Shown piece after piece: positions 2,673-34,234 of a stretch of DNA of 64,000 nucleotides. The stretch is taken from sequence record NC_070870.1. One strand, 5' to 3'. The DNA is from Escherichia phage phi G17. Below the pieces are notes generated by a model that was not told where the DNA came from, made no database searches, and was given only the letters and a program-made list of their open reading frames with translations. The position numbers were made by a program, and so were the translations under genes. Within the stretch, counting starts at the first letter, position 1; the number at the start of each line of letters is the position of its first letter.

Positions 2673-3875
2673 ATGTTAAACTATAACGCTCCAATTGACG
2701 GTCAGAAATCTAGTATTGATGGTGCTGGTTCCGACCAGATGAATACCTTTTACTGGCTGAAGAAAGCTATTATTCAGTCTCGTAAAGACCAGTACTTCAT
2801 GCCACTGGCTAACACCATTAACATGCCGAAGAACTACGGTAAGACTGTTAAGGTGTACGAGTACGTTCCACTGCTTGATGATAAGAACATCAACGACCAG
2901 GGTATTGATGCTAATGGTGCTACCATTGTTAATGGTAACCTGTACGGTTCTTCTAAAGACGTTGGTAACATCACCTCTAAACTGCCTCTGCTGACAGAGA
3001 ACGGTGGTCGTGTTAACCGTGTAGGCTTTACCCGTCTGTCCCGTGAAGGTTCTATCCATAAGTTCGGTTTCTTCTACGAATTTACCCAAGAGTCCCTGGA
3101 CTTTGATTCTGATGACCAACTGAAAGAACACCTGTCTCGTGAACTGATGAACGGTGCTGTACAGTTGACTGAAGCTGTTCTCCAGAAAGACCTGTTGGCT
3201 GCTGCCGGTACTGTACTGTATGCAGGTGCTGCTACCTCTGATGCTACCATTACAGGTGAAGGTTCTACCCCGTCTGTAGTTTCTTATAAGAACCTGATGC
3301 GTCTTGACCAGATTCTTACTGAGAACCGTACCCCGACTCAGACTACTATCATCACTGGTTCTAAACTGACTGATACCAAAGTACTTGGTGGTACTCGTGT
3401 AATGTACGTTGGTTCTGAACTGGTTCCAGAACTGAAAGCGATGAAAGACCTGTTCGGTAATAAAGCATTCATCGAAATTCAGCACTATGCTGATGCTGGT
3501 ACTCTGATGAATGGTGAAGTTGGTTGTATCGACAAGTTCCGTATTATCCAGGTTCCTGAGATGCTGCATTGGGCAGGTGCTGGTGCTCAAGCTACTACTA
3601 ACCCGGGTTACCGTTCTTCTATGGTTGGTGGCCAAGAACACTATGACGTGTTCCCGATGCTGGTAGTTGGTGATGACTCCTTCTCTACCATTGGCTTCCA
3701 GACTGATGGTAAGTCTGTTAAGTTCACCATCATGACTAAGATGCCGGGTAAAGAAACTGCTGACCGTAATGACCCGTATGGCGAGACTGGTTTCAGTTCT
3801 ATCAAGTGGTACTACGGTATTCTGGTTAAACGTCCAGAACGTCTGGCTCTGATTAAGACTGTTGCTCCTCTGTAA
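2673..3875 (+). CDS. Major capsid protein (400 aa)
   Basis: ATG at 2673 with AGGA upstream; size and position match N4-type coat protein; followed by GC-rich hairpin; codon bias strong enough to leave a long stop-free antisense frame. Confidence 0.7.
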
Positions 3876-29970: not shown

Positions 29971-30275
29971 TATTCCCCCTTGGGAACCATGTTTGCTTGG
30001 AACTCAGGTTCAGACATCAGGCCCAGGTTGTTGATAGACAGATAAACAATATCTTTCAGGTCAACCGAGGTGTCGAAACGCTGGTCCAGACTAATCTTCA
30101 GAGAGTGATTGGCACGGGCCAAATCTTTATAGGTCACATGAGGTTCGGCAGTGAGCAGCATTGTATTCATGGTAAGCAGGGAACCATCATCAGCTTTAGG
30201 AAGCTGGAAGATTACCTGTGCTGCTACCATCCAATGATATTTTTTGACGACGGTTTCTTTAGTACTTTTAGTCAT
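29970..30275 (-). CDS. Hypothetical protein (101 aa)
   Basis: ORF between DNA polymerase fragment and 157-aa ORF. Confidence 0.4.
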   Translation of the reverse strand: MTKSTKETVVKKYHWMVAAQVIFQLPKADDGSLLTMNTMLLTAEPHVTYKDLARANHSLKISLDQRFDTSVDLKDIVYLSINNLGLMSEPEFQANMVPKGE

Positions 30276-31243
30276 GCGAATGCCTTTTGAATTGTTTGAT
30301 TAACTTCTTCAGGGGTAGCGTGATTTGGAATCTCAATCTCGTTAGCCCACGTTGGGTAGAACAAGGACAGTTCCCCACCCAAACCAACTTCTGGATGAGC
30401 AATATCGGGATGGTCTTGCCAGTTAACGGCTTCAACCAAATGCTTGTTCGTGTACTGCAAGGTATCCATGTTGTCACGAATCATGAAGTACTGAGCATCA
30501 TGAATGTGAATACTAGGACGTATATCTAATCTGAACTCACTGGTTCTGACTTTACGCATAAATTCTGAGCCAGCACGGTTATTCAGTAGACACCAGCTTT
30601 GCCCTAAGGCATTGCCAGCAGTTCTACCTTCAGCCTCTGCTTCATATGGAGTCTTACATGTCCCACGTAAAACCTGAGCCAGTAAAGGAGTACGCACTCT
30701 TAAACCAAATGCAGCAGTTACATAACCAGTCTTAGCAGCCTCGTCTAGCTTAGCCTGAACCCAGGCATCACTAACTGTATACATCTCATGGTATCTGGAC
30801 TCGATTAACTTAGCCTTCTCTTCAGAGAAGCCACAGTTTTTCATCAAGCCCATGTAAGTCCCACCGTAGGTCAGTAGGAAAGTGGGTGCTTTTGACTCAC
30901 TACGTAAAGCCTTATACTTTTTCTGTATAGAGTTGATGCCTTCCACAGAGTCATCAATATCCGGCATTTGTTCACCGAAATAAAATTTAGCTCTGAGCGA
31001 ATGCCCGTCGAACCCGTCAGTATAGACGCGCAATTTATTAGGGTCTTTGGTTGTTAGGGCTGATATACGATCCTCTAAGGACGCAAAATCGAGGCCACAG
31101 AACAACCAACCTCCCTCATAGTTAAAGCATTCTGATACTTGTTCCTGCATGCCATATTTACTAGCCAATTGCATTAACTCGTCATAATCATCCAGGGTTA
31201 CTCTATCTTTTATGCTAACTAATTTATTTAATAAGTCCTGCAT
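30272..31243 (-). CDS. Family-A DNA polymerase, C-terminal (palm/fingers) fragment carrying motifs A, B, C
   Basis: LDFASLEDRISA (motif A, compare DYSQIELR), RSESKAPTFLLTYGGTYMGL (motif B, R..K...YG), IHIHDAQYF (motif C HD); track start 31267 is TTG, ATG at 31243. Confidence 0.65.
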   Translation of the reverse strand: MQDLLNKLVSIKDRVTLDDYDELMQLASKYGMQEQVSECFNYEGGWLFCGLDFASLEDRISALTTKDPNKLRVYTDGFDGHSLRAKFYFGEQMPDIDDSVEGINSIQKKYKALRSESKAPTFLLTYGGTYMGLMKNCGFSEEKAKLIESRYHEMYTVSDAWVQAKLDEAAKTGYVTAAFGLRVRTPLLAQVLRGTCKTPYEAEAEGRTAGNALGQSWCLLNNRAGSEFMRKVRTSEFRLDIRPSIHIHDAQYFMIRDNMDTLQYTNKHLVEAVNWQDHPDIAHPEVGLGGELSLFYPTWANEIEIPNHATPEEVNQTIQKAFA

Positions 31244-31880
31244 TACGAAGTACCTTCTCCTGTTCAACCATGTTATTAGCTAATACATAGGTAATAACTG
31301 CATTCATAACAGTATCTAGATCTCTATCTACTAGGATTTCCACTCTCTTACCTAAATGGGTAATTCTACCTACCCATTTATTTTTCGACTTACTGTAACT
31401 AACATAAGGAGTTGTACTCCAAACCCTTTTGTTAGTTTGTTGGGTACTCCTATTTGCCCATCTACAATTGTCTGGAGAGTAGTCTTTGTAGGCGTCAATC
31501 CTGTCAATACTCAGTCCTATTTCATAGCCGGAAGATAATGCCCAATCTCGGAAATTTTCATATGAATTTTTCCACTCATCACAAACATTTATGCCTTTGG
31601 CCCCATATTTGTAATAAGTGGAACATTTTTCATTATGACAGCGGTCTAGCATACCGTAGTAAACCTTGTATAGAGGCTCTTTTGAACGCCCATCCTTGTA
31701 ATTACGAGGGCATTCTTTGTACAAGCAACCACAGCTTCTTGTATGACCACTTTTTAATTTTTGAATATTGACCACAGTGGTATTACCACAGTCACACAGA
31801 CATACCCAATGCTTTGCATAGTATTTGTCTTTGTGGCTGAATCTCACTACGGTCAATCTATTAAATTTCTTTCCAATCAT
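31224..31880 (-). CDS. HNH homing endonuclease inserted between the two DNA polymerase fragments
   Basis: Cys-rich N-terminal region (WVCLCDCGN...SGHTRSCGC) and LSIDRIDAYKDYSPDNCRWA HNH-type motif; ATG at 31880 overlaps stop of upstream polymerase fragment (ATGA). Confidence 0.65.
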   Translation of the reverse strand: MIGKKFNRLTVVRFSHKDKYYAKHWVCLCDCGNTTVVNIQKLKSGHTRSCGCLYKECPRNYKDGRSKEPLYKVYYGMLDRCHNEKCSTYYKYGAKGINVCDEWKNSYENFRDWALSSGYEIGLSIDRIDAYKDYSPDNCRWANRSTQQTNKRVWSTTPYVSYSKSKNKWVGRITHLGKRVEILVDRDLDTVMNAVITYVLANNMVEQEKVLRNAGLIK

Positions 31881-33694
31881 TTGGCACCACCAATTGTATT
31901 TTTCAGGGACTGGATTAATGTATCCAGCTTGTCCCTGTTTGGCAAGTAACAACTGGGTGGGGCTTCGAAGCATTTCTTAATCTTCTTGGCGTATTTAGAA
32001 CCGGATGGAATTGTTTGTAGATTGGGCTCTGAAGCCGATAGCCTACCGGAGACTGTGCCTCCCAGATTGAGGTTGCCGAACAGATAGTGCCAGCCATCCG
32101 GCCCCGGTTGGGCATTCCTGAAAGCTGGTATAAAACTAGTGATAATCTTATCCACGAGTTTATAGTCGATAAGTGCATTGAGCAGTTCCTTAACATCTTC
32201 ACTCTGCGTATGTGTACGCAGTGCTTTAATAGTGTCACCGTCAGTAGCAGGTTGCTTGCTCTTAGTAAGACCAAGAACCGGTAAGCCAATGTAATCAAAT
32301 AACAGTTTCTGTAACTGTGGACCGGAGTTAGGATTAAACTCTATGTCACAATCAGCCAGTGTTACTTGCTTCTTCTTGAGCTTAGCATTCTTATCGTCTA
32401 CCCATTCCTGACGAAGCGTCAGGGTGAAGTTCTTCATGAGCTTAGACTCACGAATAGTTTTCAGAGCCTGGTTCCTGTCAGTTTCCATCTCTTCAGCTAC
32501 TTGGTTAACGGTTTCCATATTCATGGGCATACCGGTTAACTGCATCTGAATAATGTCTTCACAGGCTGGTTTAAAGATGTTGTTGTAAACATCCAGTTGG
32601 TCATCAGCAATGAGAGTATCCCAGTGCTTCTCGTAGGTGTACCACGTACACAAACCATCAATGAGGTTGTAACGTAACAGTTGCTCATTAGGAATAAGAC
32701 AAATGTCTTTAATATCATCCTGAGCATAGTTACCGGCATACTCCTGAGCCTGGTCTTTCAGACTAAGGTGATTACCAGCACAACTGTTAGTAGCCAAGTA
32801 GGTGATTAACTTAGTACAGTCCCAATTACGCAGCATGATTTCCATGCCATGTAGTAAGCCTTCTGTATCAATCAGGTTATCCATGAATAGCTGATAGATA
32901 AGTATGTACACGTCATAGCTAATGTTGTGATACATCTGCCGTTGAGTGTACTTAATGAAGAACTCACGTAACAGGTTACGAACAATATCGTTCCTGTTAA
33001 TGCGCCCATAGGGTGCTTCAGTAGCCCCCTTAATCGGCTCGTAGTCCACATTAAAGGCTATGCCTTGTGTCTTACTCCAACAGAACGTAATCGTTCCTAT
33101 ACCTGCGTTATAGTGCTTTAAACCGAAGGATTCGATGTCTATAGCCAGAGGCTTATTCATCTCAAGCAACTGGTCTAACCAGGCTTTAATCTTTTCGGGT
33201 GTGTCTGGATAGGCTTCAAACTCAATGATTCCCTGCCCAGGTTCAGCATACTGTCCTCGAATGTGGTTAAGTAATGCATCCATACCCTGAGCAATCTTGG
33301 CTCTCACTACAGGTGGGTCATAAAAGACCTGTCTGTAGTTAGGTGTATAGATAACCTTCTGCTTACCCCATACTGAGTCACAAACATAGCCGAGGTTAGC
33401 CTCTGCTTTAGCTTCTTTAGTCAGTATTTTGAAGTAGTCAGAATCGGTACAGATAATGTACTGAGTCTCTGCGTCATCCAGTACTTGTTGCAGTTCCTGC
33501 TGTATGAACTCTTTAATCTCCCTTGCAGGAGTCTTCTTCTTGCCTGGGGCAGAATGAAGTTCAAGGAAGATGAAATCTTCCATGCTTAGGTCATAAGGCA
33601 GCAGGTAGGTTTTAATCATCTCCTCCCTTCGGATTTGATGACCGAGGATAGCAATAGGATACTTACCCGTATCCTGAGAGGTGATGTAACGCAT
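31877..33694 (-). CDS. Family-A DNA polymerase, N-terminal fragment (3'-5' exonuclease-like plus thumb region, 605 aa)
   Basis: LAIDIESFGL (Exo I DxE-like), Y...D motifs; adjacent to the fragment carrying motifs A-C. Confidence 0.6.
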   Translation of the reverse strand: MRYITSQDTGKYPIAILGHQIRREEMIKTYLLPYDLSMEDFIFLELHSAPGKKKTPAREIKEFIQQELQQVLDDAETQYIICTDSDYFKILTKEAKAEANLGYVCDSVWGKQKVIYTPNYRQVFYDPPVVRAKIAQGMDALLNHIRGQYAEPGQGIIEFEAYPDTPEKIKAWLDQLLEMNKPLAIDIESFGLKHYNAGIGTITFCWSKTQGIAFNVDYEPIKGATEAPYGRINRNDIVRNLLREFFIKYTQRQMYHNISYDVYILIYQLFMDNLIDTEGLLHGMEIMLRNWDCTKLITYLATNSCAGNHLSLKDQAQEYAGNYAQDDIKDICLIPNEQLLRYNLIDGLCTWYTYEKHWDTLIADDQLDVYNNIFKPACEDIIQMQLTGMPMNMETVNQVAEEMETDRNQALKTIRESKLMKNFTLTLRQEWVDDKNAKLKKKQVTLADCDIEFNPNSGPQLQKLLFDYIGLPVLGLTKSKQPATDGDTIKALRTHTQSEDVKELLNALIDYKLVDKIITSFIPAFRNAQPGPDGWHYLFGNLNLGGTVSGRLSASEPNLQTIPSGSKYAKKIKKCFEAPPSCYLPNRDKLDTLIQSLKNTIGGAK

Positions 33695-33703
33695 ATCTTT
33701 ACC

Positions 33704-34234
33704 TTAGAAAATCAGATGAGAAGCTGCATAGTACTCAATGGAAGGTAGAATCTTCTCATACTGTTTGATTGCCATAGCATCACCAGCAAGAGTCCAAGCC
33801 GCTTCACGAGTACGCTGTAGCCCTTTGTACTGACCAGTCTGGTCTTGTGCTACCAGACATTCAGGCAGAGCATCACGTACATCCTGATAGGACATACAAC
33901 CACGAACCAGTCGATATACAGTCTGGTTCACAAGATGTACTTCCATAATCAGACGACTGGAGGCTTTCAGATACTTGTCCATTGCAGGCCATAGTTCTGG
34001 ATTAAGCGTCAATCGTTCACCGTAGGTTGGAGGCCTAGTAGCGTTAGAACGCTGATAGAACTCCCCTTGGTAAAGAAATCCAGCCGATACATCTACACCA
34101 TTGATACGGTCGTTCTTATCAATGATACCGTTTAACACACCATCAAGACGAACCAGTTCTGCTAAGAACAGGTGCTTGACTATCTCACTACTATTGGCAA
34201 CCTGACCAATAGTCGTTGAACCAATCTGAGGCAT
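33704..34234 (-). CDS. Hypothetical protein (176 aa)
   Basis: ORF between helicase and polymerase. Confidence 0.45.
   Translation of the reverse strand: MPQIGSTTIGQVANSSEIVKHLFLAELVRLDGVLNGIIDKNDRINGVDVSAGFLYQGEFYQRSNATRPPTYGERLTLNPELWPAMDKYLKASSRLIMEVHLVNQTVYRLVRGCMSYQDVRDALPECLVAQDQTGQYKGLQRTREAAWTLAGDAMAIKQYEKILPSIEYYAASHLIF

What the first reader, a model, noticed from the sequence alone, without database searches (positions are those of the whole stretch)
31224..31880. HNH endonuclease overlapping both neighbours in different frames
The endonuclease is wedged in with start and stop overlaps on both sides, which is typical of recently invaded homing endonuclease genes and suggests a mobile insertion rather than an ancestral gene.
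Basis: inference. Interest (0 to 1): 0.4.

Follow-up and report, generated by a model that had tools for sequence, protein, structure and literature searches.

The report
Mobile endonuclease gene splitting phage polymerase
A selfish, mobile endonuclease gene has inserted into the DNA polymerase gene of this N4-like coliphage and cut it into two separately translated pieces; this is a known kind of event, though the insert also brings conserved short extensions onto both polymerase pieces.

Summary
A 218-aa ORF (31880..31224, minus strand) shares an ATGA with the stop of the upstream polymerase piece. It overlaps the start of the downstream piece by 20 nt. It lies in a different frame from both.

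The window is a Gamaleyavirus (G7C-like, N4-like) coliphage. Of the 30 best-matching phage records, 19 have an uninterrupted 2,580-bp polymerase gene. Only U1G, PGN829.1 and ST4, among 50,697 records, carry this 843-bp insert (window 31112..31954).

Identity to G7C is about 98% up to the junction. It falls to about 70% for about 340 nt downstream, then recovers, which is a co-transferred flank.

No group I intron core is detected, although the same scan finds the different intron of PhAPEC5. The splice-site rules fail, and so do the intein rules. All three ORFs have their own start signals.

The protein is not a canonical His-Asn-His enzyme. It has a zinc-ribbon-like N-domain, a PacI-like nuclease core (D-R…Y…N…Q..N) and an AP2-like DNA-binding domain. 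It is under purifying selection.

Diverged metagenomic copies keep the same 24-25-aa tail on the N-piece and a 44-52-aa leader on the C-piece. The closest precedent is mobE in Aeh1 nrdA. Verdict: a real free-standing homing endonuclease cassette, and a new member of a known kind.

The parts
31112..31954 (-). The 843-bp insert that is absent from uninterrupted polymerase genes such as G7C and ECBP1. On the coding strand its borders read ...GCCCCACCC|AGTTGT...GAGGGA|GGTTGG...
   Evidence: Alignment with G7C. The query of 3423 bp spans 2580 bp in the record. blastn with the insert finds only U1G, PGN829.1 and ST4.
31224..31880 (-). Free-standing homing endonuclease ORF of 218 aa. It has a zinc-ribbon-like N-domain, a PacI-like beta-beta-alpha-metal nuclease core and an AP2-like DNA-binding domain.
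31713..31880 (-). N-terminal Cys-rich beta module (aa 1-56: W.C.CDCGN...SCGC). It is present in one to three copies in relatives and is presumed to bind zinc and DNA.
   Evidence: Nearly invariant C27, C29, C31, C50 and C52, and tandem copies in P0007, P0008 and P0013. Strands E9-38 in the model.
31425..31703 (-). PacI-like nuclease core (about aa 60-152). It contains the motif LSIDRIDAYKDYSPDNCRWANRSTQQTN.
31278..31409 (-). AP2-like DNA-binding domain (about aa 158-201: three strands followed by a helix).
31877..33694 (-). DNA polymerase N-piece, 605 aa. It is the homologue of the first part of N4 gp39 and carries the part of the enzyme upstream of motif A, through NLQTIP...CFEAPP.
   Evidence: Pfam DNA_pol_A, profile positions 11-152. 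PHROG 17. Annotated as DNA polymerase I in U1G.
31877..31954 (-). Insert-encoded C-terminal tail of the N-piece (SCYLPNRDKLDTLIQSLKNTIGGAK plus stop). It is absent from intact polymerases. Its last codons hold the Shine-Dalgarno-like GGTGGTG (31885..31891) for the endonuclease.
   Evidence: Alignment A4 of eight cassette copies; tail consensus AYYLxNxDKLxxLIQSLKxxIxGA. Predicted helix with pLDDT about 86. SD-like motifs.
30272..31243 (-). DNA polymerase C-piece, 323 aa from the ATG at 31243. It holds motif A (GLDFASLEDR), motif B (KAPTFLLTYG) and motif C (IHIHDA).
   Evidence: Pfam DNA_pol_A, profile positions 135-303. PHROG 2573, in which the C-piece residues 42-310 match profile positions 3-286 of 336. 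Alignment A2.
31112..31243 (-). Insert-encoded N-terminal leader of the C-piece (MQDLLNKLVSIKDRVTLDDYDELMQLASKYGMQEQVSECFNYEG). Its last ~14 residues resemble the '..IKKCFEA' strand that the N-piece also retains.
   Evidence: Alignment A6 of nine leaders. hhalign against the native segment: P = 0.004, probability 8.6%. pN/pS 0.09-0.18, from small counts.
31253..31261 (-). Shine-Dalgarno sequence AGGAGAAGG for the C-piece. It lies inside the endonuclease coding sequence, 9 nt before the ATG at 31243.
   Evidence: Read from the sequence. An AAGGT-type motif sits at the same distance in the six other cassette copies examined.
30772..31111 (-). About 340 nt of polymerase sequence directly downstream of the insert that is foreign to the G7C-like backbone. 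It is interpreted as a co-converted flank.
   Evidence: Identity to G7C is 97.9% in the 240 nt upstream, 69.7% in this tract and 95.1% beyond it. ECBP1 is 86.5% identical in the tract. ST4 carries the insert but is G7C-like (91.8%) over this tract.

Best explanation
The element is a free-standing homing endonuclease gene cassette, with neither an intron nor an intein. It has inserted into the family A DNA polymerase gene (the N4 gp39 homologue) of a Gamaleyavirus.

Shown here:
- The 843-bp insert lies between the codons for ...CFEAPP and GW..., in the hairpin just before motif A.
- It is absent from most close relatives.
- It arrived with about 340 nt of diverged downstream polymerase sequence.
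- It encodes a 25-aa tail on the N-piece, a 218-aa endonuclease under purifying selection, and a 44-aa leader on the C-piece.
- Each of the three ORFs has its own SD-like motif and start codon.

Inferred:
- In a mixed infection the enzyme cuts or nicks the uninterrupted polymerase allele near this site. Repair from the insert-carrying genome then copies the cassette, with variable lengths of flank, into the cut genome.
- The carrier is immune because the insert, and the many synonymous changes downstream of it, break the target.
- The essential polymerase is made as two polypeptides that associate without being joined.
- The conserved tail and leader probably help this assembly, or restore the strand broken by the split. 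This is how the element-derived tails of the split NrdA of phage Aeh1 work.
For: - Presence or absence at one site among phages 90-95% identical.
- Identity to G7C falls from 97.9% to 69.7% exactly at the junction and recovers after about 340 nt. ST4 has the same insert but is G7C-like over the same tract.
- No group I intron model matches the window or U1G at E <= 10. The same scan finds a full-length Intron_gpI match (E = 5e-7) in the different PhAPEC5 insert.
- The endonuclease has pN/pS of 0.09-0.16 and belongs to a family seen in 1,169 phage records. It has a PacI-like core and an AP2-like domain.
- Tail, endonuclease and leader are kept as open, in-frame coding sequence in every cassette copy examined: the three GenBank phages and 11 metagenomic loci from 7 distinct lineages, whose endonucleases are 44-64% identical where measured. 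Polymerase backgrounds differ.
- SD-like motifs precede both internal starts in the seven copies examined.
- In L021 the endonuclease lacks its N-terminal domain and carries an in-frame stop, yet the split, tail and leader persist.
- U1G, PGN829.1 and ST4 are isolated, viable phages.
- Precedents: the Aeh1 nrdA/mobE tails (PMC3045599), and DNA polymerases split by HNH genes in Vibrio N4-like phages (PMC3670811).
Against: - No cleavage activity or target site has been measured. The catalytic core lacks the canonical histidine, and activity is inferred from PacI, which uses a tyrosine (PMC4081073).
- Two-piece polymerase activity has not been shown for any of these phages.
- The Rfam model is imperfect for phage group I introns. 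Even the control scored below the gathering threshold (38 bits against 50).
- Evidence that the tail and leader interact is weak.
- Part of the conservation in the tail and in the endonuclease C-terminus is explained by embedded ribosome-binding sites and overlapping frames.
- The direction of change (gain by homing, or loss in relatives) is inferred from mosaic patterns, not observed.
Confidence: 0.8

Rival explanations
1. The insert is a self-splicing group I intron that carries the endonuclease ORF, so one continuous polymerase is made from spliced mRNA.
For: Intron-borne HNH genes are common in phage polymerase genes. PhAPEC5, PhAPEC7 and SP5M have such an element 66 bp upstream in the same gene. 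The non-endonuclease parts of the insert add up to about 190 nt.
Against: - No Intron_gpI match in the window or U1G at E <= 10, while the PhAPEC5 control gives a full-length match at E = 5e-7.
- The exon would end in C, not U, and the insert would end in A, not G.
- The flanking parts of the insert are in-frame extensions of the two polymerase pieces. They are kept open and conserved at the amino-acid level in copies with 44-64% identical endonucleases, and they have their own stop, SD and ATG.
Confidence: 0.05
2. The tail and leader are the two halves of a split intein with a free-standing endonuclease between them (a 'fractured gene'). The pieces would then be ligated by protein trans-splicing.
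For: The gene order of host piece, short extension, free-standing endonuclease, short extension, host piece is the one described for fractured genes (PMC2677866).
Against: - Tail plus leader total only 69 aa, which from my own knowledge is too small for a HINT fold.
- Most tails start with Ala, not Cys or Ser.
- The leader does not end in His-Asn.
- The residue after the leader is Gly or Trp, not Cys, Ser or Thr.
Confidence: 0.02
3. The split gene is the ancestral state in this group, and the endonuclease is a resident, possibly domesticated gene. Uninterrupted polymerases in relatives would then be secondary losses, not the target of invasion.
For: - The cassette family is old and widespread in N4-like contigs.
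- The insert in the window is about 9.4% diverged from that of U1G.
- ECBP1, which lacks the insert, has a downstream tract like the insert-carrying phages (86.5%). This could be a scar of loss.
Against: - Only 3 phages among 50,697 records carry the insert.
- Upstream of the junction the window is 97.9% identical to G7C, and identity falls abruptly at the insert. This is what import of a cassette into a G7C-like backbone predicts.
- ST4 is G7C-like over the downstream tract, unlike the window, U1G and PGN829.1.
- Precise loss would itself need recombination with an intact allele.
- No function other than mobility is suggested by the position.
Confidence: 0.1

Closest known systems
mobE inserted in nrdA of Aeromonas phage Aeh1 (genes-in-pieces ribonucleotide reductase; PMC3045599)
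   Same: A free-standing homing endonuclease gene splits an essential replication-related gene into two ORFs. Both pieces carry short extensions that are absent from intact homologues. There is no RNA or protein splicing.
   Different: - The host gene here is a family A DNA polymerase, not nrdA.
- The endonuclease is a PacI-like HNH variant with an AP2-like domain, not a Mob-type enzyme.
- The tail and leader here recur, conserved, in every cassette copy examined, so they appear to travel with the element. The Aeh1 tails are described as unique.
- Their function is untested here.
DNA polymerases of Vibrio N4-like phages JA1 and VchO139-I split by HNH genes (PMC3670811)
   Same: An N4-like phage has its DNAP homologue split into two ORFs by an HNH-family gene.
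   Different: That paper proposed an intron without testing for one. I did not compare the site or the endonuclease with the present one.
Group I intron with an HNH_3 endonuclease in the polymerase gene of PhAPEC5, PhAPEC7 and SP5M (L003)
   Same: The same gene and the same genus, only 66 bp away. It is also sporadic among relatives.
   Different: - That insert matches the group I intron model over its full length (E = 5e-7) and has U/G splice borders. The window insert does neither.
- Its endonuclease has no detectable DNA similarity to this one.
PacI restriction endonuclease and PacI-like phage HNH endonucleases (PDB 3ldy/3m7k; PMC4081073; PMC12724721)
   Same: A beta-beta-alpha-metal core with D-R in place of the histidine general base. 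The Tyr, Asn and Asn/Gln positions are conserved (PacI D92, R93, Y100, N104, N113 align with D126, R127, Y134, N138, Q147).
   Different: - PacI is a small homodimeric restriction enzyme with two Cys4 zinc sites and no AP2 domain.
- Here the core is flanked by separate DNA-binding modules, as is typical of homing enzymes.
Fractured genes: split inteins with a free-standing endonuclease between the halves (PMC2677866)
   Same: The same gene order, and replication genes are the usual targets.
   Different: The extensions here lack every intein hallmark that I could check, and they are too short.

Membership tests
HNH / beta-beta-alpha-metal nuclease superfamily | A beta-hairpin plus helix (beta-beta-alpha) core fold | tested here: met
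HNH / beta-beta-alpha-metal nuclease superfamily | The canonical His (general base)...Asn...His/Asn motif, recognised by Pfam HNH models | tested here: not met
   No Pfam or NCBIfam HNH model matches, even at E <= 10. The position of the general-base His is Arg127, which is invariant in the family.
PacI-like branch of HNH enzymes | D-R in place of D/H-H, with conserved Tyr, Asn and metal-binding Asn/Gln | tested here: met
   phmmer aligns LSIDRIDAYKDYSPDNCRWA with PacI LGVDRSDSFEGYSPQNARLA. R127, Y134, N138, Q147 and N150 are invariant and D126 is nearly invariant in 39 family members. The roles of the PacI residues are taken from PMC4081073 and PMC3996161.
PacI-like branch of HNH enzymes | Metal-dependent DNA cleavage | not testable with these tools
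   This needs a purified protein and a substrate.
Free-standing homing endonuclease gene (intronless homing) | Sporadic presence at one conserved site among close relatives that otherwise have an intact allele | tested here: met
   Among the top 30 records, 19 are uninterrupted and 5 carry the insert. The insert is found in 3 phages among 50,697 records.
Free-standing homing endonuclease gene (intronless homing) | Flanking marker co-conversion or mosaicism centred on the insert | tested here: met
   Identity to G7C is 97.9% upstream, 69.7% for 340 nt downstream and 95% beyond. ST4 is 91.8% identical to G7C in that tract.
Free-standing homing endonuclease gene (intronless homing) | Not embedded in a self-splicing intron or an intein | tested here: met
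   Rfam is negative, with a positive control. The ORF is in a different frame from the polymerase. The splice-site and intein rules fail.
Free-standing homing endonuclease gene (intronless homing) | Cleaves the insert-less allele and is inherited preferentially in mixed infection | not testable with these tools
   This needs a cleavage assay on the G7C allele and co-infection crosses.
Group I intron-encoded endonuclease | A group I catalytic core (P3-P9) around the ORF, with U before the 5' splice site and G at the 3' end of the intron | tested here: not met
   No Intron_gpI match at E <= 10 in the window or U1G, while the control in PhAPEC5 gives E = 5e-7. The borders are C|A...A|G.
Split intein / fractured gene | N-intein starting with Cys/Ser, C-intein ending in His-Asn followed by Cys/Ser/Thr, and about 130 aa of HINT fold in total | tested here: not met
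   Tails start with Ser or Ala. Leaders end in ..YEG..YMP or ..YKD followed by Gly-Trp. The total is 69 aa.
Genes-in-pieces with element-derived assembly tails (Aeh1 NrdA type) | An essential gene split into two translated ORFs, each with an extension absent from intact homologues | tested here: met
   A 25-aa tail and a 44-aa leader are absent from G7C and KP8. SD plus ATG precede each ORF.
Genes-in-pieces with element-derived assembly tails (Aeh1 NrdA type) | The extensions are required for assembly or activity of the split enzyme | not testable with these tools
   Only indirect evidence is available: conservation across diverged copies and confident helices in a fusion model.
AP2 DNA-binding domain | A three-stranded sheet packed on a helix, recognised by Pfam PF00847 | tested here: inconclusive

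The most novel reading that the evidence does not exclude
The 24-25-aa tail and the 44-52-aa leader may not be debris from one insertion event. They may be a portable assembly kit that belongs to the mobile cassette. On this reading the element carries, on either side of its endonuclease gene, coding sequence that re-equips both halves of whatever family A polymerase it splits. The leader would also supply a replacement copy of the beta-strand before motif A. This would let the element invade an essential gene in many N4-like phages without any splicing machinery.
Probability: 0.35. Interest if true: 0.55.

Novelty: new member of a known kind. Interest (0 to 1): 0.33.

Why it matters
For annotation, this locus should be read as one polymerase in two pieces plus a selfish gene. 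It should not be read as two polymerases, a pseudogene or an intron.

For biology, it adds a family A DNA polymerase example to the small set of essential genes that stay functional after being cut by a free-standing endonuclease. It also offers natural split points and candidate assembly peptides for engineering split polymerases.

The endonuclease is a compact, modular enzyme with a zinc module, a PacI-like core and an AP2 domain. Its natural target lies in a highly conserved polymerase motif, which could interest those who study homing enzyme specificity or phage-phage competition.

None of this is unexpected to a specialist in phage mobile elements.

Tried and rejected
- **Group I intron.** Rejected by the Rfam scan with a positive control, by the splice-border rules and by the coding nature of the flanks.
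- **Intein or split intein.** Rejected because the ORF is in another frame and the extensions lack intein hallmarks.
- **Tail as a decayed duplicate of the motif A strand and helix.** hhalign gives nothing (probability 0.5%), so I dropped it.
- **Leader end as a diverged copy of the '..IKxCFxA' strand.** There is only weak support (hhalign P = 0.004, probability 8.6%). I keep it as a suggestion because it is collinear with the native position.
- **Leader homology to the KP8 polymerase.** The match from residue 5 is only a BLAST extension through the ordinary GGTVSGRLS...SKY region. It is not a real relative of the leader.
- **Paralogues of the endonuclease in the window.** None found (tblastn).
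- **Promoter or terminator between the pieces.** Nothing above shuffled expectation on the coding strand.
- **Contacts in the fusion model.** I could not measure them because coordinates are not exposed.
- **Original PacI structure paper (PMC2886031).** It is not held in the library, so PacI residue roles are taken from PMC4081073 and PMC3996161.
Full report
**What is at the coordinates**

All genes in this region run on the minus strand. The ORF 31880..31224 encodes 218 aa.
- Its ATG forms an ATGA with the TGA stop of the upstream ORF (33694..31877, 605 aa).
- Its last 20 nt overlap the next ORF. That ORF most plausibly starts at the ATG at 31243, with AGGAGAAGG 9 nt upstream, and ends at 30272 (323 aa).
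- The two flanking ORFs are the front and back of one family A DNA polymerase: Pfam DNA_pol_A profile positions 11-152 and 135-303, and PHROG 17.
- The two pieces are in the same frame as each other. The middle ORF is in a different frame from both.

The longer 249-aa reading from the ATG at 31973 is unlikely, because the homologues shown in the alignment (P0001, P0002, P0003, P0005) begin at M(I/L)G and are 218-220 aa.

The polymerase region is 90-95% identical to Gamaleyavirus phages, the G7C-like N4-like coliphages of the Schitoviridae. Among the 30 best records:
- 19 span 2,580 bp and are annotated as one polymerase gene (G7C, ECBP1, EC1-UPM and others).
- 5 records, representing the three phages U1G, PGN829.1 and ST4, carry the same insert. 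It is annotated there as polymerase / HNH endonuclease / polymerase.
- 6 records (PhAPEC5, PhAPEC7, SP5M) carry a different insert.

Alignment fixes the insert at window 31112..31954. It is 843 bp and lies between the codons for ...KKCFEAPP and GWLFCGLDF..., directly before polymerase motif A. A sensitive blastn search with the insert alone finds only those three phages among 50,697 phage records.

**Signs of import**

With the insert removed, identity to G7C across the junction is as follows:

| Region relative to the junction | Identity to G7C |
|---|---|
| 240 nt upstream | 97.9% |
| 340 nt downstream | 69.7% |
| Beyond the tract | 95.1% |

- The differences in the tract are mostly synonymous.
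- U1G and PGN829.1 share this tract.
- ST4 carries the same insert but is 91.8% identical to G7C over the tract as a whole.
- ECBP1 has no insert, yet it is 86.5% identical to the window in the tract.

This mosaic, centred on the insert, is what repeated recombination at a homing site produces.

**Not an intron and not an intein**
- A permissive Rfam scan of 30200..33800 and of the U1G locus gives no group I intron match at E <= 10.
- The same scan finds a full-length Intron_gpI match (38 bits, E = 5e-7) in the PhAPEC5 insert. That insert sits 66 bp upstream at E-P|N-L-Q and has the expected U...G borders.
- The borders of the window insert are C|A...A|G.
- The parts of the insert outside the endonuclease ORF are in-frame extensions of the two polymerase pieces. 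One is a 25-aa tail (SCYLPNRDKLDTLIQSLKNTIGGAK). The other is a 44-aa leader (MQDLL...SECFNYEG).
- These extensions cannot be a split intein. They total 69 aa. Most related tails start with Ala. Leaders do not end in His-Asn, and the next residue is Gly or Trp.

**The cassette is an old, recurrent unit**

Searches of metagenomic proteins found endonucleases 44-64% identical and polymerase C-pieces 55-66% identical that show the same layout. The layout is ...CF(E/Q/M)(A/P)PP, then the tail, then the endonuclease, then an MQ(D/E)LL leader ending in CF.Y..GW, then motif A.
- Tail consensus: AYYLxNxDKLxxLIQSLKxxIxGA.
- Leader consensus: MQDLLxKLxSLxxxxSLDxYxxLxxxAxKxxxxxxLxxCFxYEx.
- The polymerase backgrounds differ, for example GWLLVGLDFNALEAR and GWILCGADFSSLEDR.
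- SD-like motifs are conserved before the endonuclease ATG, inside the last tail codons. They are also conserved before the C-piece ATG, as AAGGT inside the endonuclease K-V-L codons.
- In L021 the endonuclease lacks its N-domain and has an in-frame TGA in the catalytic motif, yet the split, tail and leader remain.
- L018 carries both an HNH_3 insert at the N-L-Q site and this cassette. L019 has the polymerase in at least four pieces.

Among window, U1G and ST4, pN/pS is 0.09-0.16 for the endonuclease and about 0.1-0.2 for the leader. Counts for the leader are small, and counts for the tail are too small to judge.

**What the protein is**
- Pfam and NCBIfam give nothing. PHROG 374, labelled 'HNH endonuclease', matches at 2e-63.
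- tblastn finds relatives in 1,169 phage records.
- The AlphaFold model is confident, with pLDDT 93.
- phmmer aligns LSIDRIDAYKDYSPDNCRWA with PacI residues 89-108.
- R127, Y134, P136, N138, Q147 and N150 are invariant in the family, and D126 is nearly invariant. They align with PacI D92, R93, Y100, N104 and N113.
- PacI uses Asp and Asn for the metal and a tyrosine as general base (PMC4081073, PMC3996161). PacI-like endonucleases have been noted in phages (PMC12724721).
- The N-terminal Cys-rich module (W.C.CDCGN...SCGC) occurs in one to three copies in relatives.

The label 'HNH' is therefore right at the level of the fold and wrong at the level of the canonical motif.

**How it most likely works**

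Shown: the insert, the imported flank, three translatable ORFs, selection on the endonuclease, and recurrence of the whole cassette.

Inferred:
- The enzyme cuts or nicks the uninterrupted allele near CFEAPP|GW in mixed infections, and repair copies the cassette in.
- The carrier genome is protected by the insertion and by the synonymous changes downstream.
- The polymerase works as two associated chains.

The tail and leader probably aid assembly. The split NrdA of Aeh1 is the precedent: there the element-derived tails are essential for activity (PMC3045599).

An AlphaFold model of an artificial fusion of N-piece residues 431-605 with the C-piece gave three results:
- It predicts a tail helix and two leader helices at pLDDT 75-86.
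- It places a short strand from the leader (FNY, residues 206-208) directly before the motif A strand (212-219).
- It gives low confidence to the N-piece copy of that segment.

This is weak evidence. The resemblance between the leader end and the native strand is itself only suggestive (hhalign P = 0.004).

**Comparison with known systems and verdict**

Gene splitting by free-standing endonucleases is established (PMC3045599, PMC2988022). Split polymerases with HNH genes have been reported in Vibrio N4-like phages (PMC3670811), and this very insert is annotated in three GenBank phages.

The finding is therefore a real and correctly interpreted mobile insertion, and a new member of a known kind. 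The conserved, apparently portable tail and leader are the only part that could repay further work.

Noticed in passing
L003 (PhAPEC5) 1456-2094; also PhAPEC7 and SP5M: Other Gamaleyaviruses carry a different 672-bp insert in the same polymerase gene. It lies 66 bp upstream of the window's site, at the codons E-P|N-L-Q. It has a full-length match to the group I intron model (E = 5e-7) and a different endonuclease.
   Followed up: partly
L018 688-4999 (metagenomic contig of 53.7 kb): One N4-like contig carries both elements in the same polymerase. An HNH_3 gene follows a break at ...KPNL. After a short exon (QNLP...CFQAPP plus tail) comes the PacI-like cassette and the C-piece.
   Followed up: partly
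L019 1236-4987 (metagenomic contig of 32 kb): The polymerase appears to be in at least four ORFs (534, 45, 110 and 328 aa). The PacI-like endonuclease sits before the last one. It is not known how such a fragmented polymerase works.
   Followed up: no
L021 3535-4000: The endonuclease copy lacks the N-terminal Cys-rich domain. It also has a TGA where relatives have the Trp codon of ..NCRW.., so it looks like a decaying gene. The polymerase stays split, with tail and leader intact. An assembly error is not excluded.
   Followed up: partly
L009 (ECBP1), polymerase region around the junction: ECBP1 has no insert, yet it is 86.5% identical to the window in the 340-nt downstream tract, against about 70% for G7C. 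It is also diverged for about 240 nt upstream. It may be a former carrier, a donor lineage or a resistant allele.
   Followed up: partly
L017 (APSE-7) 3001-3399; Salmonella phage records H69-H76: A relative of this endonuclease domain (24-37% identity) lies under the annotated DNA polymerase CDS of APSE-7 and of several Salmonella phages. One of these is annotated as an intein-containing polymerase. The same nuclease family may therefore also travel inside polymerase genes in another form.
   Followed up: no
Proteins P0133, P0185, P0167, P0161: Many polymerase C-pieces of 276-286 aa from N4-like-sized contigs start at other points: just before DGYDGH, or at (M)GLDF or LFVGLDF. Their leaders are different. 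The region around motif A therefore looks like a hot spot for several independent splitting events.
   Followed up: no
window 31877-31973: The endonuclease frame stays open upstream to an ATG at 31973 (249 aa), overlapping the polymerase N-piece by 97 nt. The aligned homologues argue for the start at 31880, so the extension is probably not translated.
   Followed up: yes
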